Part shown: piece by piece, positions 1,762 through 32,186 of the stretch | How the letters are laid out: each line of letters opens with the position of its first letter | Position numbering within the stretch: position 1 is the stretch's first letter | Source of the DNA: Nemertoderma westbladi | Lineage: Eukaryota > Animalia > Xenacoelomorpha | Reading direction: 5' to 3' | DNA length: 47,457 nt | NCBI GenBank assembly: GCA_032718475.1 | Contig: JAUCBJ010008931.1 | Location: 1-47,457 of the forward strand | The notes under the pieces: model-generated | What the model was told of the DNA's origin: nothing | What the model saw: the letters and a program-made list of their open reading frames with translations, nothing else | The model's database searches: none | Program-made: the position numbers and the translations under genes

Positions 1762-1778
1762 GTGGCTACCTATCAACA

Positions 1779-4281: not shown

Positions 4282-4303
4282 TTAATTATATAATTATATT
4301 ATT

Positions 4304-5988: not shown

Positions 5989-6062
5989 GATAGTCACAAT
6001 TTAATCGATGTAAATTATTTATTATTTATTATTATCTGATTATCTGAAGTTATAGCGACTAT

Positions 6063-6659
6063 ATGGATAAATTTCTAAGTCGCAGCCGTGGGCGTGATTA
6101 TTACCCGACGCTGGAAAACCCGGGAATAATAGTAGATTTCCAATATTATACGCATCTTCCGCAGATCGACCAACACCCCGTTGCAACCATTTATTTTAAA
6201 GAGTTTGCGGCTTATAATACTACCATCAAATCATTAGAAAACGTATGGTTTATTAATGGTCCACCTGCAAAAATTTTAAGTTTAAGCGAATACGACCGTC
6301 TCACACAACTCGCCAATATTACGCATCACATTAATTTTGACTACGGATTTATGGACCAAAGCGCATTTAAAATGTACATACAGGAATGGTTACAAGAAAA
6401 AAAACGGTTGGGGTTTCAAATATTAATACGCGGAATACCGAAATTATTTATTTTAAAAAATGAATTTAATGTGAATGGAACACTTCTAGAAACGTACGGC
6501 ATAAACGAAAAATATGTTGATTATGACACCAAATGCCTTTTTCACGATTTTTCGGCAATAACAAATTGTGCCTACCATTCTGATAATAGTGATTTTTGTT
6601 TTAATTATTGTTCTGCGAAACTCGCGGTTGGTTATGGGAAATGGTTGTCGTCGAATTAA
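6063..6659 (+). CDS. DEDD/DnaQ-fold (Maelstrom-like) putative nuclease
   Basis: IIVDFQ, YFKEFAA, GPP, THHINFDYG, IRGIPK, LETYG, and C-terminal CAYH...YCS giving an E-C-H-C-like zinc motif. Confidence 0.55.
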   Translation: MDKFLSRSRGRDYYPTLENPGIIVDFQYYTHLPQIDQHPVATIYFKEFAAYNTTIKSLENVWFINGPPAKILSLSEYDRLTQLANITHHINFDYGFMDQSAFKMYIQEWLQEKKRLGFQILIRGIPKLFILKNEFNVNGTLLETYGINEKYVDYDTKCLFHDFSAITNCAYHSDNSDFCFNYCSAKLAVGYGKWLSSN

Positions 6660-6919
6660 TGTATATATAATTAATTATTGCGTTATTATATGCTACTTAT
6701 ATTTGTAGATTACACATATATGTATGTAGTAAAGAATTATTATTATATGTTATAATAAATACTCCAGCGAAACTCGCGGTTGGTTATGGAAAATGGTTGT
6801 CGTCGAATTAATGTATATATAATTAATTATTGCGTTATTATATGCTACTTATATTTGTAGATTACACATATACGTATGTAGTAAAGAATTATTATTATTA
6901 TATGTTATAATAAATACTC
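6615..6919. repeat. Near-perfect ~152 bp tandem duplication
   Basis: 6615-6764 and 6767-6919 are almost identical and cover the ORF 3' end plus the AT-rich spacer. Confidence 0.95.
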
Positions 6920-6925
6920 ATAATA

Positions 6926-7453
6926 ATGTCAGATTCTGATTTGTTTAAATTATATAGCACCCCACAAATCCAACTGGGAAGCGGGAATTATAGCGATATA
7001 CCCGTTTTTAAGGGTGGAAGCATTCTCCCGGGGTTTGGCCCATCTACTGGTATATGGAATAATAAGAATAATAAATTCGGGCGGCGATACACCCAAAATC
7101 GCCAGCGCGGACGCGGAATATTAACAACTGGTCTGGGTATATTAGCCCGCAAGTTAGGGAGAAAGGTGCTAACTAAGGCACTCCCCAAAGCAGCGAAAGT
7201 AGCACGGAAATACATAATACCGGAAGGAAAACGTATTTTACGCAGTAAAGCAGATGATTTGATAAATAAAGTGGCCGAGCGGTTAGAACCTCATCCAAAG
7301 ACTCGCCAAATCGCCCAACGGGTATACAATGAATTTACAAACCCGAAAAGTAAAAAAAAGAGGAGCAGGAAACGACGACACCCAAGTGTGGGTATGAACG
7401 TTGGGCGCAAACGTAAAAAGCGAAATAATAAATGCCGCGATATTTTTATGTAA
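6926..7453 (+). CDS. Basic virion core protein (adenovirus pVII-like role) with adenain-type sites
   Basis: QLGSG, PVFKGG and QRGRGI motifs, K/R-rich tail, C-terminal DIF. Lies directly upstream of the major capsid gene. Confidence 0.75.
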   Translation: MSDSDLFKLYSTPQIQLGSGNYSDIPVFKGGSILPGFGPSTGIWNNKNNKFGRRYTQNRQRGRGILTTGLGILARKLGRKVLTKALPKAAKVARKYIIPEGKRILRSKADDLINKVAERLEPHPKTRQIAQRVYNEFTNPKSKKKRSRKRRHPSVGMNVGRKRKKRNNKCRDIFM

Positions 7454-7462
7454 CTTAACAAA

Positions 7463-8713
7463 ATGAGTAAATTAGAATTATCATTATTCTCAAGTAAAAC
7501 AAATCAGCGAGAATATACATCTTCACATTTTTCGGATATCTACCCGATTTCTACTCTTGACGCGAATGCCCGACAAATCGAGTTCTTTATACCCCAGTCA
7601 AATGTTCTATATACTGATTTAAAGAATTCGAAATTTCACATTAAATATAAAATTACATGGGATGGTAATAGGGCTAACGACGATACAACCCTCCACCATC
7701 TTAATTACCCGGGTGGGTCACTATTTGAAAATTGTTCGTTATATTTAAATGAAAAGCTAGTTGAAACCTCGAATGGGTTCTACGCCTATAAGTCTACGTT
7801 TCAGACATTACTGTTGACAGATGCTAACGAAAAACGCAGTATTTTAAGAGCTGGTGGGTATGAAGATACTGATAATAATCTAGGTGGGGTACCTGTCGCT
7901 ACTGAGAATGACGTTCGCGGGAATTATGTTAAATTCGTTGTGGCCCCAATTTTTTTAGACCTGGCAAGCCAGGACAAATTACTGCCGCCGGGAATTAACA
8001 TTCGACTTCGTATAGACCGAGTATCGAATAATTTTTTTTTGAAAGTTGAACCCCCCGCAGGATTGGTAAACCCAAGAGTTGAAATCATGAATATTAATTT
8101 AAAAATAAAACGCCACAAGATTGATGCCGAGGTTATGCGTGCGCATTTGTTGGGGTCACAAAAAAATGACTTTATTTATAACTTGTTAAAACAAGAAGTG
8201 AAAACCTTCACTATTGGTGGCGGGCAGTCCAGTTATACAGAATCGAACATAATCCAAGGAAAATTACCTAAGTATATTTTGGTTGGAATGCTTACCAACG
8301 CCAGCTTCAACGGGGAATTAAGCAGTAATCCGCTACATTTTAACCATTTCGGTTTAAATTATGCCGAACTAAACATCGACTCCCGTATTATACACGGATA
8401 TCCATATCGCCCTAATTTTCTGGAAAACAATTTTATGTTGGAATTCGAAAGTTTAATGAACGTGTTCAAGAGCTTGAGTGGCGTATTTTGCTCGCTAACA
8501 CCTGAACGGTTTCGTACCCAATTTCCTTTGATCGTATTCGATCTTACTGCGGGAGGCGACCAAAGCCATGAGATTCAACCTAGTATTCATACAAGCGGGC
8601 ATTTGATTCTGAAATTTAGTAATGCACTAGATAACACTATTAACGTTATATTAATGGCAAGCTATGACGCTCTTCTATCTATTTCGGAAGCCAAGGAAAT
8701 AATAACTGAATAA
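7463..8713 (+). CDS. Major capsid protein (double jelly-roll)
   Basis: KLELSLF, IEFFI, YTDL, SLFENCSLYLN, YAYK, LLPPGINIRLR, GKLPKYILVG, FNG...NPLHFNHF. Confidence 0.9.
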   Translation: MSKLELSLFSSKTNQREYTSSHFSDIYPISTLDANARQIEFFIPQSNVLYTDLKNSKFHIKYKITWDGNRANDDTTLHHLNYPGGSLFENCSLYLNEKLVETSNGFYAYKSTFQTLLLTDANEKRSILRAGGYEDTDNNLGGVPVATENDVRGNYVKFVVAPIFLDLASQDKLLPPGINIRLRIDRVSNNFFLKVEPPAGLVNPRVEIMNINLKIKRHKIDAEVMRAHLLGSQKNDFIYNLLKQEVKTFTIGGGQSSYTESNIIQGKLPKYILVGMLTNASFNGELSSNPLHFNHFGLNYAELNIDSRIIHGYPYRPNFLENNFMLEFESLMNVFKSLSGVFCSLTPERFRTQFPLIVFDLTAGGDQSHEIQPSIHTSGHLILKFSNALDNTINVILMASYDALLSISEAKEIITE

Positions 8714-8777
8714 ATAAAGATCTCGCATAGTACAAAGTAAGCGAAGCCGCGCCGCCTGTGGATACGTGCACGCTAAG

Positions 8778-9221
8778 ATGTTGGACTCTATACAATTAGC
8801 GAAATTCCCGGTGGGGCCCGAATACATTGGTGTTTACGCAATCGACCAATTACACCTAATACATGCAAAAAAAAAATATAAGCATAAACAAAATTATTCA
8901 TTTATTATTAATAATCAACGTATAGGCCTACCTGGGCAACACTGGTCTTGCATACGCGTGGTTAAGAGAATTGCTTATTATTTAGATTCGTTTGGTAAAG
9001 CTCCTCCGCCAAAAATATCATATTGGTTGCATAAATATACCCAAAGGCATACTTGGAATCGTAAAATGTTTCAAGCGCCGCAATCGACTCAGTGTGGTCT
9101 ATTTTGTCTGTATTATTTAACCGAGGTGCCGAAAAATCCTGGAGCAATGAATATATTCACCTCTAATTTGCGGTACAATGATTTATTGTTATTACTGTGG
9201 ACACTTTCATTAATAAAATAA
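8778..9221 (+). CDS. Adenain-like cysteine protease (capsid maturation)
   Basis: GVYAID, PGQHW (His), YLDSFG (Asp), QAPQSTQCGLFC (Gln/Cys). First ATG at 8778. Confidence 0.92.
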   Translation: MLDSIQLAKFPVGPEYIGVYAIDQLHLIHAKKKYKHKQNYSFIINNQRIGLPGQHWSCIRVVKRIAYYLDSFGKAPPPKISYWLHKYTQRHTWNRKMFQAPQSTQCGLFCLYYLTEVPKNPGAMNIFTSNLRYNDLLLLLWTLSLIK

Positions 9222-9755
9222 TTTATTTATTTCGGTTATGGGTATATTCAATTGTGGTGCGTGAACATATTATTAGCGCTAATATTAATTAATAATAAAT
9301 ATTTATTTCTTGGGTATATAGTAATAGCAATATTTTTAATGAATATATGGGACACGACAAGTGACGCAGGTTGGGGTCTTCACACCGTAATAATTGGTAT
9401 AGAGCACATTGGGACCCAACTCTTTCCGTTATATAACAAGCATCTGCCGTCCAACCTACGCAGTTAACACAAAGGCCAGAATCTCAATCCACGCTACGCA
9501 CATTAGACAATAATTAAACGCTCTAACGACAATCAAAGGTCTGGGTTCAATTTACTCGCATATGTGGCTGGTTTCACAAAAGAAATAAACCATATATAGA
9601 TACGAAGCTGAAGCGTAGATAATTAGCTAGTTCTGTTATAGTTTATTTACTATATTAACATCTGGAATAGCGATACCGAATTCACTTTATTATTAATTAC
9701 ATTATTAAATTATTATAAAGTTACATTATTAAATTATTATAAACAAAAACATATA

Positions 9756-10181
9756 ATGGCTACAGGCGGTGATAATAAATCAGTCTCGGAGGTTGCCACC
9801 GACAACAACCCCGTCCATCCAGCCGCCATCCAACAAATACCTGTTTCCGGTAGGGTGCCCCAAACTTACGGTGTGGGGAGTCGCGGGGGTACCATTGAAC
9901 CCCTTAGAAGGCCTAATACGCCGATGGCAGCGTTGTATAGGCCTATCAATTTTTATCCGGCGATTGGTAGGCCTCTTAGGCCTATTGCCATGGTATTTCC
10001 AAATAAGCGGCCCCGAGGGCGTGGTCGTGGCTTATCGCCGTGGTTCCCCCCGGATCCACCGCAAGAAGGGGTAGTCCCTGCAGAACCAGGTAGAATTGTT
10101 GGTGGGGTAGTCCGCCCAACTTGTGCCTGCCCCCCAAGAATGGTGGGGGAAACAAGGACGCCACCTACCACCCAACATTAA
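9756..10181 (+). CDS. Pro/Arg/Gly-rich hypothetical protein
   Basis: GC-rich ATG ORF in an AT-rich context, preceded by duplicated TTACATTATTAAATTATTATAAA. No recognisable domain. Confidence 0.45.
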   Translation: MATGGDNKSVSEVATDNNPVHPAAIQQIPVSGRVPQTYGVGSRGGTIEPLRRPNTPMAALYRPINFYPAIGRPLRPIAMVFPNKRPRGRGRGLSPWFPPDPPQEGVVPAEPGRIVGGVVRPTCACPPRMVGETRTPPTTQH

Positions 10182-10493
10182 TGTAAGTAATAATTTAATT
10201 TCAACAATTAATATAATAACAATAAATAATTACCAAAATTCAACAATAGTACCCGCACGCTAAAGGCTTTGCTCACTCCGCGCCGCGTAGGTACCCATAT
10301 TCTAAGGCTTCGTTCGATTCATGGCTCGACCTATTTTTTCATCAAATCACTGTATAACAGAATTATTGGCAATTAAAACTTATGTTGGCATCGGACGGCG
10401 ATAAGACAACTCACCGATAGCGCCTATATACCACCACCACCTACCGAAAATTAATGTAAGTAATAATTTCGAAAATTATTATAATAACAATAA

Positions 10494-10894
10494 TCACTTC
10501 ACGGCTCGCCCCACAACTAGTTGCTTAGCAATAACTATAGAATTGTAATATTGGTGGCTGTCATTAGTTGAATACAATAACCTTACTTCGATGCTATCAC
10601 TCACTTCATGGCTTGCCCCATAGGTAGAATAATCAAATTAAAATAATATTATAAATACTATAACCTTATACTCACTTCACGGCTCGCCCCATTTTTTCAA
10701 TGTTGGAAAGGAATGAAGGGGACGTCGGGTGATGGTGGTAGTGGTAATGATGTTGTGGGTGAGGAAGAACTCACTTCACGGCTCGCCCCCATAAGTCTGT
10801 GTTTATTTACCTTTTTTAGTTGTTGCGTCATAACCTTACTTCGGCGCTATCACTCACACTTCGGCGCTATCACTCACTTCATGGCTCGCCCCAT
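10494..10894 (+). repeat. Dispersed array of five copies of the (C)ACTCACTTCAYGGCTCGCCCCA motif
   Basis: Copies near 10494, 10598, 10670, 10769 and 10871, spaced ~70-105 bp apart. Confidence 0.85.
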
Positions 10895-10929
10895 AGGTAG
10901 AATAATCAAATCATGTTAAAGACTTTTAT

Positions 10930-11243
10930 AATAACAAACGTCTGCAACCCACTTACTATATTGGGTTTTACCTATTGCGGTTCAAGGTCAAACGCCGACC
11001 GGTAGACACGAATTAATTAAATTACTTCCGCCTGCAAACTGGTCTTATACCGCGTATGTCACATATATACGCAGCGGTGACATATGTTACATATGCACAA
11101 TGGTAACCATGGTAACCATAGTAAGTGGGTGGGGCAACAATAGTAATCATAGTAAGTAGGCGGGGCAAGAGCCGTTCGGCAAATTCTTTAACATGGTAGA
11201 CTATGGCAGACGCTGTCTCAATCACGTTGTTTAACGTACTACT
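10930..11243. repeat. Candidate right terminal inverted repeat region of the Polinton
   Basis: Short palindromes and repeats (GGTAACCATGGTAACC, CATATG, GGCGGGGC), ending in TACTACT, the complement of the AGTAGT start typical of Polintons. The partner TIR is not in the window. Confidence 0.45.
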
Positions 11244-11597
11244 GATATACTCCCACGCCACACACTCTGCACCCACTGTTCTCAAATCTATATAACGTTT
11301 CCCTTCCATGTGGTTCGCCCCATTGGTACAATTTTCTACATAACGCTTTCAGTCTCGGAATATATAAAGTTTCCTTTCAATGCGCCCACGGTACGCGGGT
11401 CAATTTCTGCTGTCTAAATGCTGCGACCCGCTGTGATGCATCGACACTTTCGGTTTGGACGGTAACAACTGCACGTGTAAGTAAGTTGGTACGTCATGTT
11501 AAGAAATCCCGCAATATAAGCAGCACCGGTTCGGTGTAGATCGTTGACACCCATAAGAGGTGTCGAGATGGGAGGCCATTTGGTATGAGACTAAAAG

Positions 11598-11751
11598 GTC
11601 GTTCACCGTGTAGTCGTTCACCGTGTAGTCGTTCACCGATGTAGTCGTTCACCGATGTAGCCGTTCACCGATGTAGTCGTTCACCGATGTAGTCGTTCAC
11701 CGATGTAGTCGTTCACCGATGTAGTCGTTCACCGATGTAGTCGTTCACCGA
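11598..11751. repeat. Tandem repeat GTCGTTCACCGATGTA, 15-16 bp x10
   Basis: Ten consecutive units read directly from the sequence. Confidence 0.97.
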
Positions 11752-12498
11752 ACTTTCTGGTGGGTGCCGTTAAGTTACCTGTAGGTACACTAAATAGAGG
11801 ATGATTTCTAACTTGCAGATAATGTTCTTTTAAGGGCGTTTCTGTTTCGGCAAATGATATAAATTCCTCATAGAACTTGTATCGACTATAAAGACAGCAA
11901 AGAAAACTCCAATATTTCGTCCACGTTTCGCTTTATAGACATTGCACTGATGCGGATGTTACCGGCATGTAGGCCTAAATGGTGACTATTAATTAATCCA
12001 CAAACTCACGATAATTATATAAATGTATATGAATGTTTATAGATTGTCATGGGAACGATATTTCATGACAAATAATTGGACGTTGTTATGTAATGTTAGC
12101 GGTATTTCCCGCCCATCTGTAAATGTGATATCCTACAACGCGCTCTCAATAATAAGTTCTGTTAATGCAGAAATATAATTCACATGTGGAATAAACACGA
12201 GTGAGGCGCCTTCGTGCAACAAAAGCAGCAAGACATCTTGCGAACAATACGGTGAAACTGTATAAGAAATTAAATTAGTAATTATACTAAATTCCTCATT
12301 AGCTTTTGGCATTTTTAAATAGCTGGACCTGCTACGTGGTATAATGGTGATGAGGATAGTATTGTGTGCCAAGTCTACATTACATTTTTTTCAAACTAAA
12401 TTGTATACCGGTATTGGTTTTTTTCTATGGTGACAATATTATATTGTTAGTAATCTAACAATTATATATTTATTTATTATATTATTGTTTTATTGCAG

Positions 12499-12718
12499 GC
12501 GGGATATTATTGTTCATATGGTTAACCAATCGGATACAGCAGTGGAGTCCTTCTCCATTGAAACAACCAATCCATCCATTGAATGTTCTTATACCGATTG
12601 TCAATCATCCGTTAAAATTCTACCTGGGGGATCTATTGATTTGTCAGTTTCCATAACAGCATGTGATATTGGATGGAGTCGTTCAGAGTTGGACGACCCA
12701 AAGAAGGTGTCGCTAAAG
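12499..12718 (+). CDS. TRAPPC9: TRAPPC9 (NIBP/Trs120) internal exon A
   Basis: TTGCAG| acceptor, |GTAAAG donor. RDIIVHMVNQSDTAVE...KILPGGSIDLSVSI resembles QQLIIKLENIG...PLQPGKVATFTINI. Phase-0 end joins exon B in frame. Confidence 0.65.
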
Positions 12719-13886
12719 GTAAAGTAACTTTCATAGTATAAATTAAAATATAGGAATTCACCACTCATCTGCTATAGTTTCACCCAAATAGTTAAGTTTT
12801 CTATAATCATGTAAAGCGATACATTACGTTACGTACCTAGGCTGACGTGTGACGGGAACCAACTGAGTTGGCAGTGTCGGATCCCGACCGGTGTGTGGAT
12901 TGTACGCGTCGCCACGTCCGTGAGCTGCTGAGCTGTCTACTGGATGTGTACTAGTAGGCCGAAGGCCGTTCGAAATAATCTGAGTTCTGTTATCAGTATT
13001 AATATTCACAGTAATCGATAATAGCACAGTCTGAATATAATAGCATACAATACAGCGGTTAGTGACGACGACGACGGTCAAAACTGTTCCGGTCTCACAA
13101 CTCAACTGTAAGGATACCAACAAACTGGTAATCAATAATCACAATGGTTATATCATTGACACATGTTAAATTACCCCTGCACTACAGGGTGGCATTAATA
13201 TCCAATAGATGCGCTCTAATCACCCCCAATGTGCTTTCCCGCCCACCATTGGCTTAACCTGATTAATTGTCACCTCGCCACTCCCTGTTGCCACTGTCCC
13301 TGTGTGCTAGCCTTACTAGCTTGTTTGTCCCTCTGAGGTGGTTTGACCTTTCAACTCTCTCTGTGGCTTGCGAAAATGCCACTATTCCCATTTTCGGTGG
13401 GTAATGACGCAAATAATATTATAAAGAAATGTTGATAACGTAACATCATGACCTACCGATAGGTATCTACAGTCAGTAGGTCAGATATTTTTACTCAAAT
13501 ATAATTGTAATTAAACATGTTAAGCACTAAAGCAATATGCAATAGGAGATATTGACTGCACTGTGTTGTGTAAATAAAAAGTTAAAAATAATTCACTACA
13601 ATTATATTTAAAGTTACTAAATTTAATAATAATTAAAAGCTATTAATAATAATAGCTATTAATAACCAGTAGGGCCTAGCTATATTATTATAACATGGCT
13701 CCAAACGCCACCATATATATAAGCTAACTTATTTATAACATAATTTATATAATTTTTACATTTATTTATACAGCAACTAATATAATTTGTGCAGTTTCTA
13801 TCACTTACAGTATAATGTATATATACAATCATTTCGTAATGTTAAAATTTTGGAATAAAACTACATACATACTTGTTGCAAAGTAT

Positions 13887-13977
13887 TTTACAGTGTTCTG
13901 ATCCTCGTGGCTTTATTTTCACTCACTCAATAACGTTCGTTCGTGTAACAAAGCCACTCGGATCATCACACTGTAAA
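13887..13977. repeat. Imperfect palindrome, probably a non-autonomous DNA element remnant
   Basis: TTTACAGTGT..GATCC..GTGGCTTT paired with AAAGCCAC..GGATC..ACACTGTAAA. Confidence 0.7.
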
Positions 13978-14326
13978 GTGCTACTTTACACACAATTATG
14001 TAAATAGTTATTACAACATTGTTAATAACAAAATGATATCCGAATTTGTCGCTTTTATTAGCGTCGCATAGCTGCTCTCGGCACCGTATCGAATTAGAAT
14101 CATGTAAATTGATATTTTCATTCTAGAATAATAAAGTAATACTTTCCGAACTAGAATCTTATAAAGTGATACTTTCCACATTATTATCGGATCATAAATT
14201 AAATAAATATTAAATAATTACGGTACCATAATTAAAAATTTAACCATAAGCGAACCTAATTAAAGTCAGAAGCAAACCTAATTGAATTGTAACCACAATC
14301 ATAAATAATAAGAGCAAAGTCAGGAT

Positions 14327-15724
14327 TTAAATTTCGCTCAAATTATCAGAATAAAGTTGAGATCCGTCGGCAGTTAATATCGGTCCGCGGTACGAAACTT
14401 CTTCTGGAATTCTCGTCGGTTCTGGCGTGGTCCCTTCTTCCAACATTGCGACCAAATGGTCCCTAACGACGGATAGTTGAGGGCGACTACTCGGGTCGAC
14501 CTGGAAACAACGCAAGGCAACCAATAGGAAGGAGTCACACGGGACCGGGTCCCATGCGGGGATCTTAGGATCGCGGTGCAGACGTGCGAGAATCTCGATG
14601 GGATTGAGTTTAACGTATCGATAGTAATCTATTAGCACGCGATCCGTTAGCAGGAATCCACTGGTTCCATCCCACATCTTCTTTCCGGTAAACATTACAA
14701 GTAGCACTGCTCCGAACGCATAAACATCCTTAAGATTTCCGTCGCAAATATGTCCCGGTCGCCGATTCTGTTTCCGACATTCCGGCGGCAAGTAATGCTC
14801 CGTCCCGGAACAAAAACTTCCACCTTCAGATAAATTATTTCCAAACTCTCCACCCAACCCGAAGTCTCCTAGTTTAGCGACGTAGTAACCTCTATCACGA
14901 CAATCACTCCCATTTTTAACTAACAGAATGTTTTGCGGTTTTATATCACCGTGAAACGCCTTCATGCTATTGGCCCCTTTTTCCCCGTGTAAGTATGCTA
15001 GACCTCTCGCTGCCCCGTGGGCTACAAACAATCGTTGTGGGCCGGTTAGTACAGGGTTACCTTGGGTTCCGTCCGCTTGTATCAAACCCTGCAACGTATT
15101 ATCCGCTAATTGCATAACCAACGCCGATTCACTTTTATACATACACTTACCGTGGAATGTAATGATGTTTTCGCAGGTGTATTTCTTCATTAATAGAGCT
15201 TCAATTAACGAGGGTTCGATTCCCGAACGCGTTTTTTTTATAACTTTTAGGGCAACGTGAGATTGTAAACGCCCTAAATACACTTTAAATACTCGGGAAA
15301 ATTTACCCCCACCTATAAAATCAGTGGTTTCGTTAATTTCTCCAAAATCGGAACTTTGAAATTCCATCATATCATGTATTTCTAATGGCGCCGTTTTAGC
15401 TGCACCGGAGTGATTTTGTACAGGAACTATAGATGTTGGAAGACATAAAGGATGCCATTGTGGGTCAACGTGCGGTTGAAGAAGTTTCGCCGCTTTGAAG
15501 ATACGTAGATTACAGAGCGCTATATACACGTCGCAGAGATGGCAACCCTTCAATCCGGCTATGTGGATTATGCGACTTGCCCTATTATCAGTGATTTCTA
15601 TAGGTGGGATTCCCAACTGCGCCCCTAAGGCAAGGTAAACCTCGGGATCCCCCAATGAATCAACTATTTTGTAAGTCTCAAAGAGCGGCCTAGTTAGCCG
15701 TACATCTTCGAGGAAGATAACCAT
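14327..15724 (-). CDS. Pelle/IRAK-family Ser/Thr kinase with N-terminal death domain; intronless, nested antisense in a TRAPPC9 intron
   Basis: IGGGKFSRVF, VALK, HGDIKPQNILL (non-RD, as in Pelle), KLGDFG, GTEHYLPPE, DVYAFG. N-terminus has a death-domain-like pattern YLALGAQLG...DVYIALCNL...AAKLLQPHV. Confidence 0.85.
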   Translation of the reverse strand: MVIFLEDVRLTRPLFETYKIVDSLGDPEVYLALGAQLGIPPIEITDNRASRIIHIAGLKGCHLCDVYIALCNLRIFKAAKLLQPHVDPQWHPLCLPTSIVPVQNHSGAAKTAPLEIHDMMEFQSSDFGEINETTDFIGGGKFSRVFKVYLGRLQSHVALKVIKKTRSGIEPSLIEALLMKKYTCENIITFHGKCMYKSESALVMQLADNTLQGLIQADGTQGNPVLTGPQRLFVAHGAARGLAYLHGEKGANSMKAFHGDIKPQNILLVKNGSDCRDRGYYVAKLGDFGLGGEFGNNLSEGGSFCSGTEHYLPPECRKQNRRPGHICDGNLKDVYAFGAVLLVMFTGKKMWDGTSGFLLTDRVLIDYYRYVKLNPIEILARLHRDPKIPAWDPVPCDSFLLVALRCFQVDPSSRPQLSVVRDHLVAMLEEGTTPEPTRIPEEVSYRGPILTADGSQLYSDNLSEI

Positions 15725-15862
15725 GATTACTACTACATTTAGAACATCACAATGAAAATGTACCGGTACGCAGTTTTAGCACTGGTGGTATGGCAGTCAG
15801 TAAACTGATGATGATGGCCATTTGCACTAAGGTACACAACCACTACACACACAATACATGTT

Positions 15863-16686
15863 TGTGGGGCCATCGCGCAGGACGAGGGTCAGTTATTAGA
15901 TACAGATTAAAATTGAGCAATTCTATCCCAAAATCGGTACTTAAGAAATTTAAATAAATAATTAAGAAAATTTAACCAAACTTTTAATTAAAAAAAAAAA
16001 CATTTCGCATGGGCAGCTTGGTATCGATGTCATAGAAGTCCACAGTCAAACTACTCAAAAAAATCAATGCATTCTTCAGTCCTCGGGTCTCGCTCATCGG
16101 TTAGTCCAGTTTGCCCGTAGCGCTAGCGCAGTAGAGATACCAAAAGTCGACAGGTCGAGGTCGCCAACGACACTGCGACAGACAGAGGCGGTGGCCGTGA
16201 TGGCGAGTTGTTTGAGTACCGGTACATGATATGGCTGAATAGTCGCGAATACACTGAATACTCTGAACTCTGCAATCTGGAAATGCTGGAAGGCTGAAGA
16301 AAGTTAAATAGGCTTACTACACTTTCCAAGGCAGCAAGGCCACATTATTAATTGCTGCATTGTACCGGTATTGCTGAATTTCAAACCCACATGATATATC
16401 CTGCAGTCTCCTAGCAACCAGCTGATGCCAAGCCTAATAATTTTTGGGTAAATAAATTTATTTACACAGATACTGCACGAAGACCCCACGCAAATTCAAC
16501 ATGGAAAATTTCTAAACTTTTGCCAGACTACATAATATGTACCAAGTTTGGATATATTTTATCGAGATTTGGCTGAGTTATTAACGTTTAAAATTGGACA
16601 CAACAGATCAACAGAGCAACAGACACACCGATTGTGTTAGTGGTACCCGTATGCTAAGCTCGCTTACTTTCGTCGCTCGCCCCACA
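15863..16686 (+). mobile_element. Non-autonomous Helentron/HINE-like element, copy A
   Basis: Left GTGGGGCCATCGCGCAG, inverted subterminal CTGCACGAAGACCCCAC (16471-16489), TGTACCAAGTTTGG...GAGTTATTAACGTT core, 3' end GCTCGCCCCACA. Confidence 0.65.
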
Positions 16687-17379
16687 CTATAAGTTCATAC
16701 CTTTGTGAGTAGGTGTTTGAGGAAAATCATTGGCTGTCGACCACGTCTATTCTCACCCCCAGTCTACCACAACACAAGGTTGAAACAGCCGGCGAAAACA
16801 TTGCCCAGCAAGCTTCATGGGCATGGGAGTCTCTGTAGTGAATAGTCTCTTGACAATAATGGGATGTTGCCATATATCACCTTTTGCTTTGTGTGCATCT
16901 AACTACCTATAATATACCGGTAGAATATTTGAATATTATATTTTTGAAAATACTAAAAGTACTGTAGTGCAGTATTTCACACTGGCTTTAAATTACCTTT
17001 TCATTACACAAACATTACAGAAACGAGTAACGCTTATGGGCACAATATTAAACATTACTCCTATTAAACTCTTACAATGAACTGTTAGCGAGGGAATACT
17101 TCATCTAAATGTTATGGCCGAAATATTATAGTCCTGGGCCAGTATTGAACTGAATATATTTCATTGTGGATATAATGTACTCAAGAAAATATAATATAAT
17201 GTTGTTGAAAAAGAAAACACATCTGAAGATCGCGAAGCCAATTTTCTGTGTTAGCTGTTGGAAGTAGCTACTGTTAAGTTTAACGTTTTTTTTTTTCAAT
17301 GTAACTTCGTTGATTGTTCATATTTTATTGTCGCTACAATACAGTGATAAACTAACCAATAATTTTAAATATTTTTTAG

Positions 17380-17538
17380 TCTTTGGGAGGATCCGTTAAG
17401 ATCATCTACAGTGGTGGAGGGGGTCGCGTTTCGGGTTATTACAGACTTCTAGAACTTGATATTGACGTCACGGTTTCGCCAAGTTTGATCTTAACGTCCT
17501 GGAGATTCAAACCTCCCAGAAGTCCTTCAGTTATAGAT
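17380..17538 (+). CDS. TRAPPC9: TRAPPC9 internal exon B
   Basis: ACTAAC branch site, TTTTAG| and |GTAAGT. SVKIIYSGGGGRVSGYYRLLELDIDVTVSPSL matches TRAPPC9 [31 protein letters not shown]. Confidence 0.85.
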
Positions 17539-17816
17539 GTAAGTTAATTTATAATCCTCCCAATCAGCTTCATTATAGGCTTAAATAATATTTTCAACTG
17601 TGTCCCACATTTTCTTCCAATTGCCTCTCGCTCTCATCTGACTTTTATGCAAAGCTTAATTTAAATTTATAATCTGTGAGGTGTCAATTCACCATATGTT
17701 TAACATACTTTAGCTTGTATGATAATGATTAATTATTTTAAATTAGTGTGGCATTTTTTCTTAAAATATGAAAAATAATTTCCAAATTTAGAATTAAAAT
17801 CACTTAATATCCTCAG

Positions 17817-17908
17817 GTTGAGTTGGATGTTGACAATGTATCGAAGGAAGACATTGAAGTACGTTCTAGCTACGGTTTAATTGATATACCAACCATCCAA
17901 TCACGAAG
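17817..17908 (+). CDS. TRAPPC9: TRAPPC9 internal exon C
   Basis: CTCAG| and |GTATGT. VELDVDNVSKEDIEV...QSR corresponds to LLLDVFNSTEHELTV...ECQR. Phases 0 and 2 fit the neighbouring exons. Confidence 0.75.
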
Positions 17909-18026
17909 GTATGTTTTGTTCGGGAATGTAAACCGGTTGGTATCTAATGGGCACTAGCACTTCACTCAACCTAACGCGTATATATACAATATTATATATA
18001 TATTGTTATTATTTATATATTGTATT

Positions 18027-18190
18027 AATGCTGTAAGTAAAATTATCACATTGGTTACATTTTAAGCTTGTTTTTGGTGTAGTTAGTTAGATTAACATGT
18101 GTCCTGCACGGGTTAGTGTAGCTGATGAGCCAAATCCCGGCGAAACCCATGCAAAAATGTAACCAATGTGATAATTTTACTTACAGTATT
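18027..18190. repeat. 37 bp inverted repeat enclosing the hammerhead ribozyme
   Basis: 18027-18063 is the reverse complement of 18154-18190 with one mismatch. Confidence 0.92.
18096..18151 (+). ncRNA. Type III hammerhead ribozyme
   Basis: CAUGU GUC^ CUGCAC GGGUUA GUGUAG CUGAUGA GCC AAAUCCC GGC GAAA CCCAUG. Full core, GUC site, stem I 6 bp (one G-U), stem II 3 bp, stem III 6 of 7 bp. Confidence 0.85.
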
Positions 18191-18445
18191 TAAACAGGGT
18201 TGCGCTTTGTGTCCCTGTTTAAATAAAATGATGACTACTTACGGTTGAACAGATAGGAACATGTTGTTTCTCTGTTTCCAAATATTTTTACTTGCTTGAT
18301 ATTGGTCTGTCAAAAACATTTAATTCGTTCAACTCAAAATTATATTTAAGAGACCGGATCATGCTGAACATGGTTGTTTAAAATGCATTCCTATTACTTT
18401 ATTTTGATTATATATTGTATTATATTCATTCACCCTATACTTACT

Positions 18446-19416
18446 TGTGGGGCGAGCGACGAAAGTAAGCGAGCTTAGCAAACAGGTACCACTAACTCAA
18501 TCGGTGTCTCTTGTTCTGTTGTGTTCAATTTTAAACGTTAATAACTCAGTCAAATATCGATGAAATCTATCCAAACTTGGTACACATGTAGTCTGGCAAA
18601 AGCTTAGAAATTTTCCATGTGGCCTTCGAGAAGCTAAGATAATAGCCGTTAATTAGTTAATTAATTTGATTAGGGTAAAAACAGCATTTTCTAGCCTTCT
18701 TTTAATGGAAATTAATTATTTTATAGTATAAGATATAAATAATTATACTTAAAAGTTATACAGCTGTAATCCCCATACCCCATTCTATTATAGTTTTTAA
18801 TTAGTTCAAGAGATTTGCTTTAAGAAATGTGTTTTTAATTGATCTAAACGTAATTAAGTTATCAAAATGCCCTCGTCACTCTATACCTCCATCATTCCTT
18901 GGCATACAAGCGATTGCCTATTAGTTGTAACCAGTCCCTAGTGTAAAGTGACTAATAAGCCAGCTTGCTTATTATTAATCTCGCAAAATAATTGCCTGGT
19001 GTATTTAATCATATTCTTTAGAATCATTAGCTAAATAATTTATTTGAGGTGTATAAATTAATATTATCATTATTATAAATTACTTATAAATTAATATTTC
19101 AGTATCAATACTATCGGCATAAGGTAAGTTTTAACAATTTTTACAAATTGGGTTGCCTCCGCACCTAAAAATATATTACTTTTAAAACACAAATTTCCTG
19201 TTAATACCTCAGCCTTTCATTAATCCTCTGTGCTCCTTTGGGTTGGGGTGGTGCAGATTAAGAGGACGGTTGAAGCGAGAGGGAGGGAACTTTCCTCTCT
19301 TCTTTGATTTATTCTTATTGGCAGTTTGGTTAAATTTCTTATTTATTTATTTAAATTTCTCAAGTACCGATTTTGGGATAGAATTGCTCAATTTTTAATC
19401 TGTATCTGATAACTGA
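18446..19416 (-). mobile_element. Non-autonomous Helentron/HINE-like element, copy B (inverted relative to A)
   Basis: 18446-18620 is the reverse complement of ~16500-16686, and 19323-19416 is the reverse complement of 15890-15982. Confidence 0.7.
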
Positions 19417-20610
19417 GCATAATCTGATACCGAATATAATTCGGTATTAAAGATATAGATTAAATTAACGGCTTGTGGCGGAGGTAATATTATACAACAC
19501 ATTATCTTTGAACAGCCATATACATTATATTATAATGAAAATAGCACAAATGTATGAACCCTTAATAATATGAAGCATTACGTTCCAGAAACTTTATACA
19601 TTATACCAATACCCTAGGCCTACTTTGGTGCAAACTATGGGAATTCTACTGCTACACCACCCCCACCAGCCGTACTAAATGTCATGACTTAACATGTCTT
19701 GATATAAAACAATTCAGTTCACTTCAATAAGATTATTTGCATCACTAACTCATCGTATTAATAAGTAATAACCAAATATATCAAACTAATATGATTCAAA
19801 TATTTGTGCACAATAAACAAAACAGTACACCATCAAAGGACAATAAATGGACAGACAGGCAGTATATATTTGTATTACATACCGATACTGTAATCGAATG
19901 GGAAAATATTACATACTGTAAACAATGAGAAATAATTACAGGACTTTAAATGTGGAGATCAGGTTGGCACTACGAGATTCATTCGTACATAATGCATAGC
20001 AAAGCAAACACAATTGTATAAAACAATATATAATGTAGTTGCTGCACAATCGTTATGTAGTTTAATTAACCATAAACAGCTTTGAGCAGCATGGAATTAC
20101 TAGCTAAGTTATCTGACTAGGGACTAGGCCTATATAACATACTCTAATTAATTACTGCCACTACTCACTGGTGGTGGAATAATAACACCTTAGTAGAATA
20201 AACTCAAGATATTATAAACCTCCGCACACATAACGCCAAACAGGTAAATAAAATACAACCTTGTAGGTATATACATACAACAGGCTAAATTATACAAAAC
20301 AAAATACCAAACAAACAATACTATATACATACAATCAGACGAAGACCGTATTGCACGTAAGTAACTTTAGCAAAGCAGAGCACCGATGTTTGGACTTGTA
20401 TTAAGTATTGGTAGTTGCAGTTCATCGTTTCTGTTAAAAATATTCAATTAATATGATTTTATAGTTAATTTTCTTCCATATAGGGTAACATATTACACTT
20501 TTAATACGCATTTTTTTTCAGTAGGCCTCTTCTTCTTCTATATACAGTCTCATTGATATTATATATTGGTACGTACCCAGTTAGTAATGTTCATATACTG
20601 GTAGATTTAA

Positions 20611-20994
20611 TTAATAGTAGCCGCCTCCTCCGTATCCCCCACCACCATACCCCCCACCTCCACCACCTCCTCCATACCCCCCACCACCTCCTCCATATCC
20701 CCCGTAGCCACCACCCCCATTGCTTCCACTTCCTCCTCGCCCCCAACCTCCCGCCGAACCCCCTTGCACAGTGGTCCCGTTAGGGCCGGTCACATTAATC
20801 GCCTTCTCCTTCCCACTCTTATCGTCTTGTGTTCGCACGAACTCGACGTGCTCCCCCTCCTCGAGGGACCGGTATCCCTGGCTGGTGATCTGGGTTTGGT
20901 GGACAAATAGATCGTTCCCACCGCTGTCCGGTGCGATGAAGCCAAATCCCTTCTCGCTGTTAAACCACTTACAAACTCCCCGTTCAATAGCCAT
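20611..20994 (-). CDS. Cold-shock-domain protein with Gly/Tyr-rich tail; intronless, nested antisense in a TRAPPC9 intron
   Basis: GVCKWFN, KGFGFI (RNP1), DLFVHQ (RNP2), [23 protein letters not shown] repeats. First ATG at 20994. Confidence 0.92.
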
Positions 20995-21920
20995 GCTGTA
21001 ATCTGGCAATTTCTTTAATATACAGACAGAAGTAGGTCAATCAGTACTGCAGTAAGCAATACAATAGATAAGCTACTGAGGTAGGTCAGTCAGTCAGTAC
21101 TACTACAGTGCAGTACAGCAGAGTGCATTAGCTAAAGGGCGTGGCGTAGATCAATAATTCTATCTGTAGGCCTACCTACTGAACTGATTAGCCTAAGCTG
21201 TGATGTTATATCACGGTTGTTTCCTGTACTATGGTGGCCCATTACTGCATTAAGGCCAAAGACAAATTTAATAAAACAACAACTAAATGCTGAAATATTT
21301 TATGTTAATTAAAAATTGATAAAAAAAATGTGGCCTCTTTGGGCCATAGCATGGCCCGGTGAGGCCAAAATAAAAATGTCATATTTTTTTTATTAAAATG
21401 TTTTTTCCACGTGGCCCATGAGTGCTGGAGTGCCATTCCCGTAGACAGGTAGATTCTGATGTTACCATCATGGCCTAGGACATGACTGCATCAGTCTGTC
21501 AGTACGGGTATCACAGTATCAGTGCATTAGGCCTATTATAGTAAAAAAAACTGTGACTAAGACTATTACATTGCACACGCGCCGCTGACATATGCTACCG
21601 TACACCGGAAGTGTTCAATTCTTGCTGTCTTTGCGAGGAGCCGTGACATGCTAACAATAGAATATCCTCGTTTGCTAGTTAATTAATCAATTAATTCAGA
21701 GTATTTATAGAGTTACAATAAAGTTAAGAGTGATTTCGAACAAGGCAAGGATGTAAGTGAAGGCAAGTAACCTGGTTGATATGTTTTTTTTTGAAAGTCA
21801 ATTACTACTATCCACCATACACTTTCATTATAATTCTATACCATTTTTAATGCATTGTCTTTATGAACAGCAAGTCTCCATCTCCATCCCATTTATGTTA
21901 CTTATAACATTGCTCAACAG

Positions 21921-22108
21921 GGTCTTGCACGAAATATCCCGCCTTAAGTATTCGGTTTGTCACTCGCTAAGTGACCTCAGAGACCATTTATCTCGGTCGA
22001 TTGCATTGCCATGGTGTGATCTGTCCCATAACAACCACGGTGTTGGCGTTTGGGGTGATTTGGGTCAGATTGAATCGTCAGCATTGGTTCAGGATCCCAT
22101 TTCCTGGG
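21921..22108 (+). CDS. TRAPPC9: TRAPPC9 internal exon D
   Basis: CAACAG| and |GTAAGA. HLSRSIALPW...HG...LVQDPISW corresponds to IHSKLGICW...SG...LQLAPLQW. Phases 2 and 1 fit. Confidence 0.75.
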
Positions 22109-22577
22109 GTAAGATATAGTGATAATTTATAAATTATTGATTACAATTAATTACAATTACTTAATAACTACAATATAATATATGAAAAATTATCTTGATT
22201 TCCGTTCGTAGCTGTGTATTTTTTCATACAAACATGATGAACTATGAATCAAAGAGCATTAGATTTGAAATAATTGTATAGTATATACAATTACATTAGT
22301 AATTACATTACATTAATTAATCATTACTAATTCATTACATTAATTAGTATATACATGTATAGTATATGATCTAATTTTATACTGTATATAATGGGGCTGG
22401 CTATTATACTGTAATTTTTTTTTTACTGTATGGTATGACGTATGTAGGACGTAGGTATGCCACAACGCAAGTAGCCTATTTACTCTTCAGTCTGCAGTAT
22501 ACACACATAGTAGGCATTGACCTAAATGAGACAACCTTTATATTTTATACCGTTTGTCCATGTCCCGTTGACCCTAA

Positions 22578-22938
22578 AGGCCTGTTTACACGTGGCAACT
22601 TTTAGAGCAACTTTCTCGGCAACTAGCAACTTTTTTTGGAGCAACTTAATTTAATGGCTGTTTACACGTGGCAACTTTACCAGCAACTTGGCCGGCAACT
22701 TTTAGAGCAACTTGGCTAGTTTGACTGTAAAATAGTGGGTCATTTTATCTACTAGCTAGTTTTTGATATTTAATTTGATTATTCGTCAACGCAAATTCCT
22801 TTAAGTTGCAGTAAAAGTTGAGCAACTTTTACAGCAACTTTTTTACGTGTTTACACGGAGCAACTTGATCGGCAACCTGGGTTGCTCTACAAGTTGCCGA
22901 GAAAGTTGCTCTAAAAGTTGCCACGTGTAAACAGGCCT
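22578..22938. mobile_element. PIF/Harbinger-type MITE
   Basis: ~47 bp TIR AGGCCTGTTTACACGTGGCAACTTTTAGAGCAACTTTCTCGGCAACT, flanked by TAA and TTA. Internal GCAACT repeats. Confidence 0.88.
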
Positions 22939-23015
22939 TTACACACAGACACATATCAGTATACCTAGGCCTACTTTTGTTTGTTTATGTTGTTTTTAAT
23001 CTGTATAATTTTTAG

Positions 23016-26906: not shown

Positions 26907-28564
26907 GTGGGGCCTTCGCGCAGCACGAGGCCCAGTTATGAGATACAAATTAAAATTGTGCGACTGTATCACAAAATCAGGTTATGAGAGATTAACCCAC
27001 ACCACCAATTAATCAAAGAAAAGGGGACAGTACGTGTTCACCCCTTTTAATCTACACCCCCCCCCCCCCCCCTCCCCCCACCCACCAATACATAACCGCG
27101 ACATCTACCACCCACGGAAGGGTAGCACGAACTTATTTCCAAACGCACGTTCAATATGCAAAGCCAGGTGGTTTATAGGAATATAATCGATGCAGTACTC
27201 GTCTTCATTATAAGCCTCTTTGCGTTCGACCTGTTTTGTATTGAAATATATTTATTAAACACAGGCTGACGCTCTTTATAATAATAATACCTAGGGATGC
27301 CAGCTTCCAGACTTTCAATCTTTACTGCCGCGCAAACCCCGCAGAGGAAGTTTTGGGTTGAGAGATCAAGCCCATCGGCAATTGGTGTTTCAATTTCGGT
27401 CCAGGAACTCTGACAATAGGAGCATTAAATATTAGCTGTGGTCCATTCCCGTGGTTTCGGCTTCCTTTTCTTCGTCCCAATGACAGATTATTCTGAAGAC
27501 GTTCGATTCGCTTTCAGTTTATTGTTGGCGTTTGTGTTTTGAAGTTGTATTCGAGTGGACAGTCGCGCCGGTTTCGAGGTAACCATACCGACCTGTGATA
27601 AGCGTTGGTTTTGTTGAGTACCGGTATTCATCTTCTCTCACCTTTCAATGTCAGATGTTGCAAATACTGATAACACGAATAACGGTATATATTTCAATAC
27701 TTGTCAATAGTAATATATATAATTTAGATAACTATTTCATATCTGTAGGCCTACTGTTGAGCAAACTCTACATAAATTCCAACCTGTGTATCGCCGGTAG
27801 TGCTGCTGCTGTGCAAGTGCTGAAGTGCTAGTTGCCACCGGTCAGTCGGTACCGGTAGTAGGGTGGTACCTACGGTGCGCACTACAACGGCAGTACAGCA
27901 ATACGGTGTACCGTGCCAATGACTGAATGATTAGCGGTAACTATCTAAACTATTATATTATTATTACCGGTGCCGGTACTGGGCTAATTAGGCCTAAACT
28001 ATAATCTCCGCAAGGGTTGCCGGGGCCATGTTTAATTAGATTACATGATATGGCATGTCTGCAGTGTATGGTACCGGCTGACCAGTGTTGCAGTATTGAC
28101 TGATTGCAGGATTCTCGATTCAGGGATTGAGTACAGCCTGACAGTACCGGTACATGCAGATTGGCCGACAGCCCCAATGTATTGCAAAATTTGTCAGAAA
28201 CCCAGCTGATTTATCCTACAGTAATAATAATTTAACGCATTTTAATTTTGGATAAATAAATTTATTATAACTGCAATAACAGTTACACTGATGCTGCACG
28301 AAGGCCCCACGCAAATTCTACTTGGAAAATTTTCAAACTTTTGCCAAACAACATGTGTACCAAGTTTGGATAGATTTCATCAAGGATTGGCCGAGTTATT
28401 AACGTTTAAAATAAAATACTGAAAAAAAACGCGACAGAACGACAGGTTGATTAATGGTACCCCTACGCTAAGGCTCACTCACTTCGTGGCTCGCCCCACA
28501 GAACGACAGGTTGATTAATGGTACCCCTACGCTAAGGCTCACTCACTTCGTGGCTCGCCCCACA
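26907..28564 (+). mobile_element. Non-autonomous Helentron/HINE-like element, copy C, with tandemly duplicated 3' end
   Basis: Left GTGGGGCCTTCGCGCAGCA, inverted TGCTGCACGAAGGCCCCAC (28292-28310), same core as A and B. The 64 bp end unit is repeated at 28437-28500 and 28501-28564. Confidence 0.7.
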
Positions 28565-30090: not shown

Positions 30091-30324
30091 GGAACTGGAC
30101 GCAATAAGGGGAATCTCCAGGGGAAATTCGACGCAAATAACAGCTGATTACTCTCAAAAATAAAACTGTAACCTATTGTTTATTGTATTTAGTTTATTGT
30201 TTTGGTTAAAATAACGTGCCACTGTAACCTGCTCCTTCCCCTAAATTGAGAATTTAACATTGAGGCGGGATATTAATTCGCCAAGATGGGATTTGCGTCC
30301 AGTCCCCCCCCCCCCCCCTGTCTC
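30091..30324. mobile_element. MITE, copy 1 (one end damaged)
   Basis: Reverse complement of 31951-32186. Internal TIR ACTGGACGCAA / TTGCGTCCAGT with a poly-C tract. Confidence 0.8.
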
Positions 30325-30675
30325 GATTACTGACACGCTGAGAACATTGATGAATGACGAGATTCTCCATAAGAACACTGGCTTTAGTGTTGTGTGGAGT
30401 TTTTGGCATGCCAACTGTGTTTACAGTTCAGCAATGTTACATTATGCATTACAGTGAACTATACCAGTATCCACTCTTAATACCGTAATATAAAGTACCG
30501 GTACTGCGGTACAGAGAACAGACTAATCAAACAGACAAACGACCATCTAATCGTTTATTAGCTATTAGTTCTAACCATTATTTCGTTTCTGTATTTGCTG
30601 GCTACCTCCATTCTGGTGACGCTTGACGCTGCAGTCAAACGCTAAAAGGCACTTTTGAGATTCACCCTTTGGACG

Positions 30676-31950: not shown

Positions 31951-32186
31951 GAGGCAGGGGGGGGGGGGGGGGGGGGGGGACTGGACGCAAAACCCGCCTT
32001 GGCGAATTAATATCCCGCCTCAATGTTAAATTCTCTATTTAGGGAAAGGAGCAGGTTACAGTGGCACGTTATTTTAACCAAAACAATAAACTAAACACAA
32101 TATAACAGGATACAGTTTTAATTTTGAGAATAATCCTGGAGAGGGGTGAATTTTTATTGCGTCCAGTTCCCCCCCCCCCCTATCTG
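31951..32186. mobile_element. MITE, copy 2, complete, with 8 bp TSD
   Basis: GATTAAAG at 31943-31950 and 32187-32194. TIR of poly-G + ACTGGACGCAA and TTGCGTCCAGT + poly-C. Confidence 0.85.

What the first reader, a model, noticed from the sequence alone, without database searches (positions are those of the whole stretch)
18027..18190. Type III hammerhead ribozyme with kissing loops, sense-oriented in a TRAPPC9 intron and enclosed in a long hairpin
Seen: complete core (CUGAUGA, GAAA, GUC with predicted cleavage after 18103) and all three stems. Loops GGGUUA and AAAUCCC are complementary, allowing a loop-loop pseudoknot. The motif sits between the arms of a 37 bp inverted repeat, ~190 nt after exon C, and a second hairpin (AAACAGGG/CCCTGTTT) follows. 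Known: loop I-II contacts make natural hammerheads fast, and most animal genomic hammerheads are type I. Inference: a retrozyme-like or novel small mobile RNA that would cut TRAPPC9 pre-mRNA co-transcriptionally.
Basis: partly seen in the sequence, partly recalled or inferred. Interest (0 to 1): 0.8.

Follow-up and report, generated by a model that had tools for sequence, protein, structure and literature searches.

The report
Self-locking hammerhead repeat in animal intron
A complete plant-type (type III) hammerhead motif sits in one copy of an abundant small non-coding repeat of an animal genome; the repeat likely jumps through a self-cut, possibly circular RNA, and an adjacent antisense arm plus a point change are predicted to keep this copy from cutting the gene in whose intron it landed.

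Summary
The type III hammerhead is there as described, in a spliced + strand intron, 17909-21920. It is not a host-gene feature. It belongs to an insertion, 18028-18413, flanked by a 9-15-bp direct repeat, from a family whose contig depth is hundreds of times single-copy depth; the unit is likely about 365 nt. The 37-bp enclosing hairpin is specific to this copy: its left arm has single-copy depth and fits a Penelope-type head-to-head inversion. The family has A at 18147, giving a perfect stem III; this copy has a mismatch. A family-wide antisense arm (18066-18102; 29 pairs, 8 G-U; 0 of 2000 shuffles as stable) is predicted to block the ribozyme by about 16 kcal/mol in the pre-mRNA. It puts the cut site at its tip, so cut ends would be held together for ligation. 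Another copy ends exactly at 18104, a hint of past cleavage. The loop kiss is 3 G-C pairs and unproven. TRAPPC9 was not confirmed by any tool. The scan reported type III, antisense-locked repeats elsewhere in this genome (e1-10613132, e1-10610887); same family not shown. Verdict: new variant of animal retrozymes; cutting of the host pre-mRNA is unlikely.

The parts
18013..18027 (+). Left copy of the target-site duplication (15 nt exact; the first 6 nt also match the element's 3' end, so 9-15 bp) in TA-rich intron DNA
   Evidence: D6; 2 of 2000 local shuffles reach 15 nt
18028..18063 (-). Inverted, locus-specific copy of element bases 18154-18189 (head-to-head); it makes the 'long hairpin'
   Evidence: depth 0-80 here against thousands from 18062-18075 on
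18065..18413 (+). Forward body of a high-copy non-coding repeat, 349 nt, 34% GC; likely about 16 nt short of one full unit of about 365 nt
   Evidence: depth and loose ends; a loose end upstream of 18065 matches 18400-18413 at 13 of 14
18066..18102 (+). Antisense arm predicted to pair with 18106-18141 (29 pairs: 12 A-U, 9 G-C, 8 G-U); the cut site lies in the 3-nt tip loop 18103-18105
18096..18151 (+). Type III hammerhead motif, predicted cut between 18103 and 18104; C at 18147 breaks a stem III pair, the family has A
18187..18225 (+). 13-bp hairpin; perfect in this copy, but the family majority has C at 18218 (an A.C mismatch)
   Evidence: I12; table 3
18382..18413 (+). Variable AT-rich 3' end where laid contigs stop (18405-18412); duplicated in one other copy
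   Evidence: tables 2, 5c, 7, 8
18408..18422 (+). Right copy of the target-site duplication
   Evidence: D6
17817..17908 (+). Host exon upstream of the insertion ('exon C'), spliced from 17538 and on to 21921; gene name TRAPPC9 unconfirmed
   Evidence: joint 17538>17817 GT..AG; loose ends match 12687-12716 and 21922-21947

Best explanation
This is one copy of an abundant non-coding repeat with a complete type III hammerhead motif; the family is likely a retrozyme of about 365 nt whose RNA would cut itself into units, likely close into circles and be pasted back by a Penelope-type reverse transcriptase, while this intronic copy is predicted to be blocked and would rarely cut the host pre-mRNA. 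Shown: the motif, high copy depth, the duplication at the target, a locus-specific head-to-head inversion, a junction from the 3' end back to the arm in another copy, and a copy ending at 18104. Predicted by folding: the antisense arm blocks the core; in a cut-to-cut monomer the same helix holds the 5' end (18104) next to the 3' end (18103). Inferred: a minority of tandem transcripts with the intact 7-bp stem III escape the block and cleave; a host ligase joins the ends; the circle is then protected from re-cutting; a Penelope-like enzyme copies circles or uncut RNA (this copy crosses the cut site) and cut linear RNA (the copy that stops at 18104).
For: Depth over 18076-18383 is 4,800-18,400 (X1) and 17,500-95,000 (X2), against 33 and 80 in the flank. 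The 15-nt direct repeat sits at both junctions, reached by 2 of 2000 shuffles. The left arm has single-copy depth. Other head-to-head joints are 18104/18276 (X1, X3) and 18227/18327 (X2, X4). Penelope insertions carry an adjacent inverted, 5'-truncated copy and 8-10-bp duplications (PMC8557442 and PMC3846280 passages). A loose end upstream of 18065 matches the 3' end at 13 of 14, with 0.18 matches expected per window. A at 18147 holds 99.3-99.8% of depth in three DNA runs. Only 1 of the 23 listed substitution places lies in 18064-18200, and it is this copy's own change. The arm folds at -30.0 on + against -12.4 kcal/mol on -, with 8 G-U pairs and no A.C, and 0 of 2000 shuffles match it. End juxtaposition has P=1.0. 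A blocked type III hammerhead is described for plant retrozymes (PMC4918200 passages).
Against: No cleavage, expression or circle was shown. Even with the family base the hammerhead fold stays 6.7-12.6 kcal/mol above the ensemble with the arm present, and 5.1 without it (no pseudoknot term), so how the family cleaves is unexplained. A cut upstream unit eases the block only from 12.0 to 8.9. The tandem junction rests on loose ends of a few contigs (3 in X3, median 15 letters; 1 in X2), and its diagnostic half likely on one contig. The 18104 joint is probably one locus. The 349-nt piece as a circle is only 55% paired, z -2.0, below the roughly 70% cited for retrozymes. No Penelope partner could be searched, because no genome was held. 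Depth is not a copy count. C18147 could be an assembly error.
Confidence: 0.6

Rival explanations
1. The repeat is the pseudo-LTR (terminal repeat) of an autonomous Penelope-like element, and this is a truncated stub of it; no free circular RNA stage is needed.
For: Head-to-head inversion, shared 3' end with a variable stretch of about 30 nt, partial-tandem junction and TA-rich target all match Penelope insertions. Animal retrozymes are reported as related to pLTRs (bioRxiv 10.64898/2026.07.22.740005, Results part 1 of 2).
Against: The PLE hammerheads described in the passages read are type I or minimal (PMC4209133). Upstream loose ends run into the unit's own 3' end or into varied flanks, with no common upstream body (136 loose ends were not shown). 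The arm with the cut site at its tip suits a re-ligated unit.
Confidence: 0.17
2. It is a SINE-like repeat moved by a LINE enzyme (twin priming); the hammerhead is a largely inactive passenger held shut by the arm in all copies.
For: A duplication of up to 15 bp and a shared 3' end. The other inversion joints can be read as twin priming (recalled L1 model). The block is predicted even with the family base. Most depth extends upstream across the cut site.
Against: The core and stems are intact in the family majority, with few variants there. One copy ends exactly at 18104. In this copy the inverted part lies wholly inside the forward part, which simple twin priming does not give.
Confidence: 0.15
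3. One reading: this copy is an active, fast, pseudoknotted ribozyme that cuts the host pre-mRNA during transcription and affects the gene.
For: Sense orientation in a spliced intron; complete core. The left edge of the insertion is present in two samples, X1 and X2. The folding model ignores the loop kiss. Conserved intronic hammerheads exist in amniotes (PMC3088659 and PMC6155905 passages).
Against: Blocked by 16.2 kcal/mol in context, and the arm is made first. It is a young copy of a mobile family with about 4-5 differences from the majority. A spliced contig joins the exons across this intron at depth 1049.
Confidence: 0.08

Closest known systems
Metazoan non-LTR retrozymes (Cervera and de la Pena 2020, PMC7229834: abstract, passages, section 13; Li, Clavereau and Pollet, bioRxiv 10.64898/2026.07.22.740005: abstract, Results part 1 of 2)
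   Same: Non-coding, hammerhead-bearing, 150-450 nt, GC below 50%, many copies, target duplication longer than 4 bp, sometimes intronic, linked to Penelope-like elements.
   Different: Those carry type I hammerheads; this is type III with a full 7-bp stem III in the family. Tandem arrays and circular RNA are shown there and only hinted here.
Plant LTR retrozymes (Cervera et al. 2016, PMC4918200: passages)
   Same: Type III hammerhead predicted to be blocked in a long hairpin by a complementary sequence.
   Different: Here the unit is about 365 nt rather than 600-1000, GC is 34%, and the duplication is 9-15 bp rather than 4. The copy is not LTR-bounded and has a head-to-head inversion.
Type III pseudoknotted hammerheads of HDV-like circular RNAs and of termite and dipteran genomes, including Drosophila pseudoobscura (PMC7936874, PMC3088659: passages)
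   Same: Genomic type III hammerhead in an animal with possible Watson-Crick pairing between loops I and II.
   Different: Those have long helices I and II, an internal-loop GCCR/YGGC contact, and are described as isolated motifs. This one is compact (6-bp stem I, 3-bp stem II) and sits in a high-copy repeat.
Penelope-like element insertions and pLTR hammerheads (PMC8557442, PMC3846280, PMC11167929, PMC4209133: passages)
   Same: Adjacent inverted 5'-truncated copy, short target duplication, AT-rich target, variable 3' tail-like stretch, sense hammerhead.
   Different: No reading frame in this copy; the hammerhead is type III, not type I or minimal.

Membership tests
Type III hammerhead ribozyme | Conserved core (CUGANGA, GAAA, NUH) with closed stems I and II and open stem III | tested here: met
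   family base gives 7 of 7 stem III pairs
Type III hammerhead ribozyme | Rfam Hammerhead_3 model score | tested here: not met
   no hammerhead hit at gathering or at E<=10
Type III hammerhead ribozyme | Loop I-II tertiary contact | tested here: inconclusive
   Loop I starts with G, whereas 44 of 48 phage motifs of the same spacing start with U. A run of 3 or more complementary bases occurs in 12 of those 48 (rows not independent). No variants in the loops to test covariation.
Type III hammerhead ribozyme | Self-cleavage at the NUH site | not testable with these tools
   indirect only: a copy ends at 18104; fold predicted blocked
Metazoan non-LTR retrozyme | Non-coding unit of 150-450 nt, GC below 50%, many genomic copies | tested here: met
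   no ORF of 70 aa or more; GC 0.34; depth; unit length inferred
Metazoan non-LTR retrozyme | Tandem (head-to-tail) copies | tested here: inconclusive
   one loose-end consensus joins the 3' end to the arm; this copy is under one unit; no genome held
Metazoan non-LTR retrozyme | Type I hammerhead | tested here: not met
   type III, so a variant and not a standard member
Metazoan non-LTR retrozyme | Target-site duplication longer than 4 bp | tested here: met
   9-15 bp; empty site not seen
Metazoan non-LTR retrozyme | Expressed as linear and circular unit RNA | not testable with these tools
   only assembled contigs were available
Plant LTR retrozyme | Two LTRs with 4-bp duplication, 600-1000-nt unit, GC above 55% | tested here: not met
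   PBS and PPT were not searched
Penelope-like element (autonomous) | RT plus GIY-YIG reading frame attached to the repeat | tested here: inconclusive
   none in this copy; other copies could not be examined

The most novel reading that the evidence does not exclude
An animal carries hundreds of copies of an endogenous viroid-like RNA circle of about 365 nt built on a plant-type (type III) hammerhead. One antisense arm does three jobs: it holds the cut ends together for ligation, shields the circle from re-cutting, and acts as a safety catch that lets copies sit in sense orientation in host introns. A Penelope enzyme copies both the circle and the cut linear form.
Probability: 0.3. Interest if true: 0.68.

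Novelty: new variant of a known kind. Interest (0 to 1): 0.45.

Why it matters
The papers read describe animal retrozymes with type I hammerheads and plant retrozymes with blocked type III hammerheads. Five literature searches (listings, open-access library only) listed no paper on a high-copy type III retrozyme in an animal, although isolated genomic type III motifs in insects are published. If confirmed, the family links animal Penelope-borne retrozymes to plant and viroid-style circles. It also offers a simple test of how a self-cleaving element is tolerated inside host introns. For the host gene itself this copy is probably neutral.

Tried and rejected
No whole genome was held, so there was no copy count or empty-site search. 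Rfam gave no hammerhead hit; two microRNA models matched only the long hairpin, below their gathering scores. Exact-sequence scans found 0 matches in viral contigs and 3 in metagenome contigs, all three unrelated on reading. ARAGORN found no tRNA in the window, so a tRNA head like those noted for other families in this genome is not supported. Attempts to confirm TRAPPC9 all failed: Pfam on five exons, solved structures, protein searches with two exons, HMMER representatives (6 hits, none TRAPPC9) and the Atlas. Short exon queries make these blanks weak; by-eye similarity to TRAPPC9 is recalled and comes from no call. No RNA holder was listed. X4, labelled DNA, shows a spliced joint and element contigs over 18173-18412 but none over the ribozyme; X5 has one contig starting at 18109. 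None of these is used as evidence on expression. No clean depth step at 18104 can be read. A viroid-like second hammerhead on the minus strand of the arm was rejected by eye: the core letters are absent. The look-up of earlier findings by sequence gave no look-alike. Supplements were not read; the bioRxiv supplements are closed and may list type III families.

Full report
Observation. The motif is at the stated place: GUC ends at 18103; stem I has 6 bp (2 G-U) and a 6-nt loop; CUGAUGA is at 18122-18128; stem II has 3 bp and a 7-nt loop; GAAAC is at 18142-18146; stem III has 6 of 7 pairs with U18100.C18147 mismatched. The 37-bp inverted repeat and the 13-bp second hairpin are real. Rfam does not score the motif. 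The loops offer three G-C pairs, then U.U, U-A and A.A. Among 69 phage matches with the same spacing, 48 have a full stem I. Of these 48, 46 have a stem II of 4 bp or more, 44 begin loop I with U, and 12 show a complementary run of 3 or more between the loop windows (counted by hand, duplicates included). So this motif lacks the usual U-started loop and may use G-C pairing instead, but a 3-base run is not rare and no covariation is available.

Host gene. The genome looks animal: a neighbouring dipeptidase has best hits of 61-70% in tunicates, amphioxus, molluscs, cnidarians and vertebrates. One contig of run X4 joins 17538 to 17817 (GT..AG). Its loose ends match the exon ending at 12718 and the exon starting at 21921 (compared by eye). 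The ribozyme is therefore in sense orientation in a 4-kb intron, 17909-21920, 188 nt after the donor. The name TRAPPC9 is plausible by recalled similarity only; no tool confirmed it.

It is a repeat copy. No genome was held, so I laid contigs of 5 of the 7 listed runs: X1, X2, X4 and X5, and X1-X4. Flank depth is 33 (X1) and 80 (X2). Over 18076-18383 it is 4,800-18,400 and 17,500-95,000, with X3 similar to X2. Summed depth is not a copy number, but it implies hundreds of copies, and 44, 52 and 69 contigs fit only in part, which points to many flanks. Depth rises at 18062-18075 and fades at 18384-18412. The left arm of the long hairpin has depth 0-80, so it belongs to this locus. An exact 15-nt direct repeat lies at 18013-18027 and 18408-18422 (2 of 2000 local shuffles); 6 of its bases also match the element end, so the duplication is 9-15 bp. 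The insertion reads: duplication, inverted 18189-18154, forward 18065-18413, duplication. Penelope-like insertions have this head-to-head layout, 8-10-bp duplications and a 30-40-nt tail, with TA-repeat targets for some clades (PMC8557442, PMC3846280 and PMC11167929, passages). Other copies show inversion joints 18104/18276 (X1, X3) and 18227/18327 (X2, X4). A further joint, 18062 to 18337 in X1, is either another such copy or an allele of this locus lacking the ribozyme; I cannot tell which. The first joint ends exactly on the first base of the predicted 3' cleavage product. With about eight junction ends over 350 bases this has a rough, after-the-fact chance of 2% (hand estimate), and it is probably one locus. 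A loose end upstream of 18065 in X3 begins with 14 letters matching 18400-18413 at 13 of 14 (2 matches in the window, 0.18 expected), followed by 16 TG-rich letters; X2 agrees over the last 19. This suggests a head-to-tail unit of about 365 nt, of which this copy holds 349.

Family versus copy. At 18147, 99.3-99.8% of depth in X1-X3 reads A, which completes a 7-bp stem III; a subfamily has two extra letters after 18148 and keeps 6 bp. The copy also differs from the majority at 18218, 18229 and 18285, so it is young; whether C18147 is real or an assembly error is not shown. Of 23 places listed with substitutions, 1 lies in 18064-18200 (this copy's own change) and 22 in 18201-18412. A hand-picked 1 versus 13 polymorphic places gives Fisher p=0.011. 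Several places come from one contig and the 1% threshold depends on depth, so this is only a hint of constraint on the ribozyme and arm.

The antisense arm. The best fold is not the hammerhead. Bases 18066-18102 pair with 18106-18141 in 29 pairs, including 8 G-U and no A.C. The stretch folds at -30.0 kcal/mol on + and -12.4 on -. Shuffling only the arm, 0 of 2000 dinucleotide and 0 of 2000 mononucleotide shuffles reach the observed energy (z -6.5 and -4.8). This strand asymmetry suggests selection on the + RNA. Whether the two are one family is not shown: the lengths differ and the sequence look-up was empty. The hammerhead fold lies 16.2 kcal/mol above the ensemble in the intron context (11.6 with the family base) and 5.1 above it in the minimal piece; the pseudoknot is not modelled. 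In equilibrium snapshots of a growing chain the arm is closed by 18118-18122, before stem I can finish, unless the RNA starts at about 18092 or later. The cut site is in the 3-nt tip loop. In a cut-to-cut monomer the same helix forms with P=1.0 and holds 18104 beside 18103, as a ligase substrate would need (inference). Plant retrozymes are likewise predicted to hold their type III hammerhead blocked, yet cleave to about 60% during transcription (PMC4918200 passages), so a predicted block does not prove inactivity. Against my reading: tandem context lowers the penalty only to 7.7-8.9 kcal/mol in most models and 12.3 in one, and the piece as a circle is 55% paired, z -2.0, with 2 of 100 shuffles as stable.

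Mechanism. Most likely (0.6): tandem or read-through transcripts of intact copies cleave in part; the unit's ends zip up in the arm helix and are ligated; the circle is shielded from re-cutting; and a Penelope-type enzyme copies circles or uncut RNA (this copy spans the cut site) and cut linear RNA (the 18104 copy) into AT-rich targets. This copy, blocked and mismatched, is predicted to leave the pre-mRNA mostly intact. Rivals: a pLTR stub of an autonomous Penelope element (0.17), a LINE-moved repeat with an inactive ribozyme (0.15), and an active intronic cutter (0.08).

Comparison and novelty. Size, GC, duplication and Penelope link fit animal non-LTR retrozymes (PMC7229834 abstract, passages and section 13; bioRxiv 10.64898/2026.07.22.740005 abstract and Results part 1 of 2, which finds about 43% of Xenopus copies in introns). 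The defining type I topology is not met. Topology and blocking fit plant retrozymes, but LTR structure does not (also PMC7761336, PMC11722881 and PMC6155905, passages). Pseudoknotted type III motifs in insect genomes are published (PMC7936874 and PMC3088659, passages) but differ in architecture. Five searches listed no paper on a high-copy type III animal retrozyme; the library is partial and no supplements were read. Verdict: a new variant of a known kind, of a type already met by this scan on other DNA of the same genome; interest 0.45.

Noticed in passing
window 1237-9221: Polinton/Maverick-like gene block: ATPase (1746-2489), rve integrase with chromodomain (3148-4281), and further ORFs resembling capsid and protease genes (the last two labels are recalled, not from a call).
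   Followed up: partly
window 14327-15775 (-) and 20611-21036 (-): An intronless protein kinase ORF and a cold-shock-domain, Gly-rich ORF lie antisense inside two introns of the host gene.
   Followed up: partly
window 18446-18620; related copies 16462-16686 and 28283-28419: A separate, very abundant repeat (depth 240,000-580,000 in X1 and X2) starts 24 bases after the insertion's right duplication.
   Followed up: no
window 30181-32102: 138-bp inverted repeats (96%) enclose a DUF7041 ORF (30646-31350).
   Followed up: no
window 22575-22941: MITE-like element with perfect 50-bp terminal inverted repeats.
   Followed up: no
window 38811-40241 and 42166-43587 (-): Two tandem intronless copies of cytosolic non-specific dipeptidase; the second is diverged.
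   Followed up: partly
window 32729-33838 (-): Intronless ORF with PWWP and weak LEDGF domains.
   Followed up: no
window 17965-18009 and 18063-18336: X2 lacks 45 bases of the TA-rich flank; X1 has a joint from 18062 to 18337 that may be an allele without the ribozyme.
   Followed up: partly
L004-L072: 48 of 69 phage-contig matches have the type III core and a full 6-bp stem I, most with stems II and III as well.
   Followed up: partly
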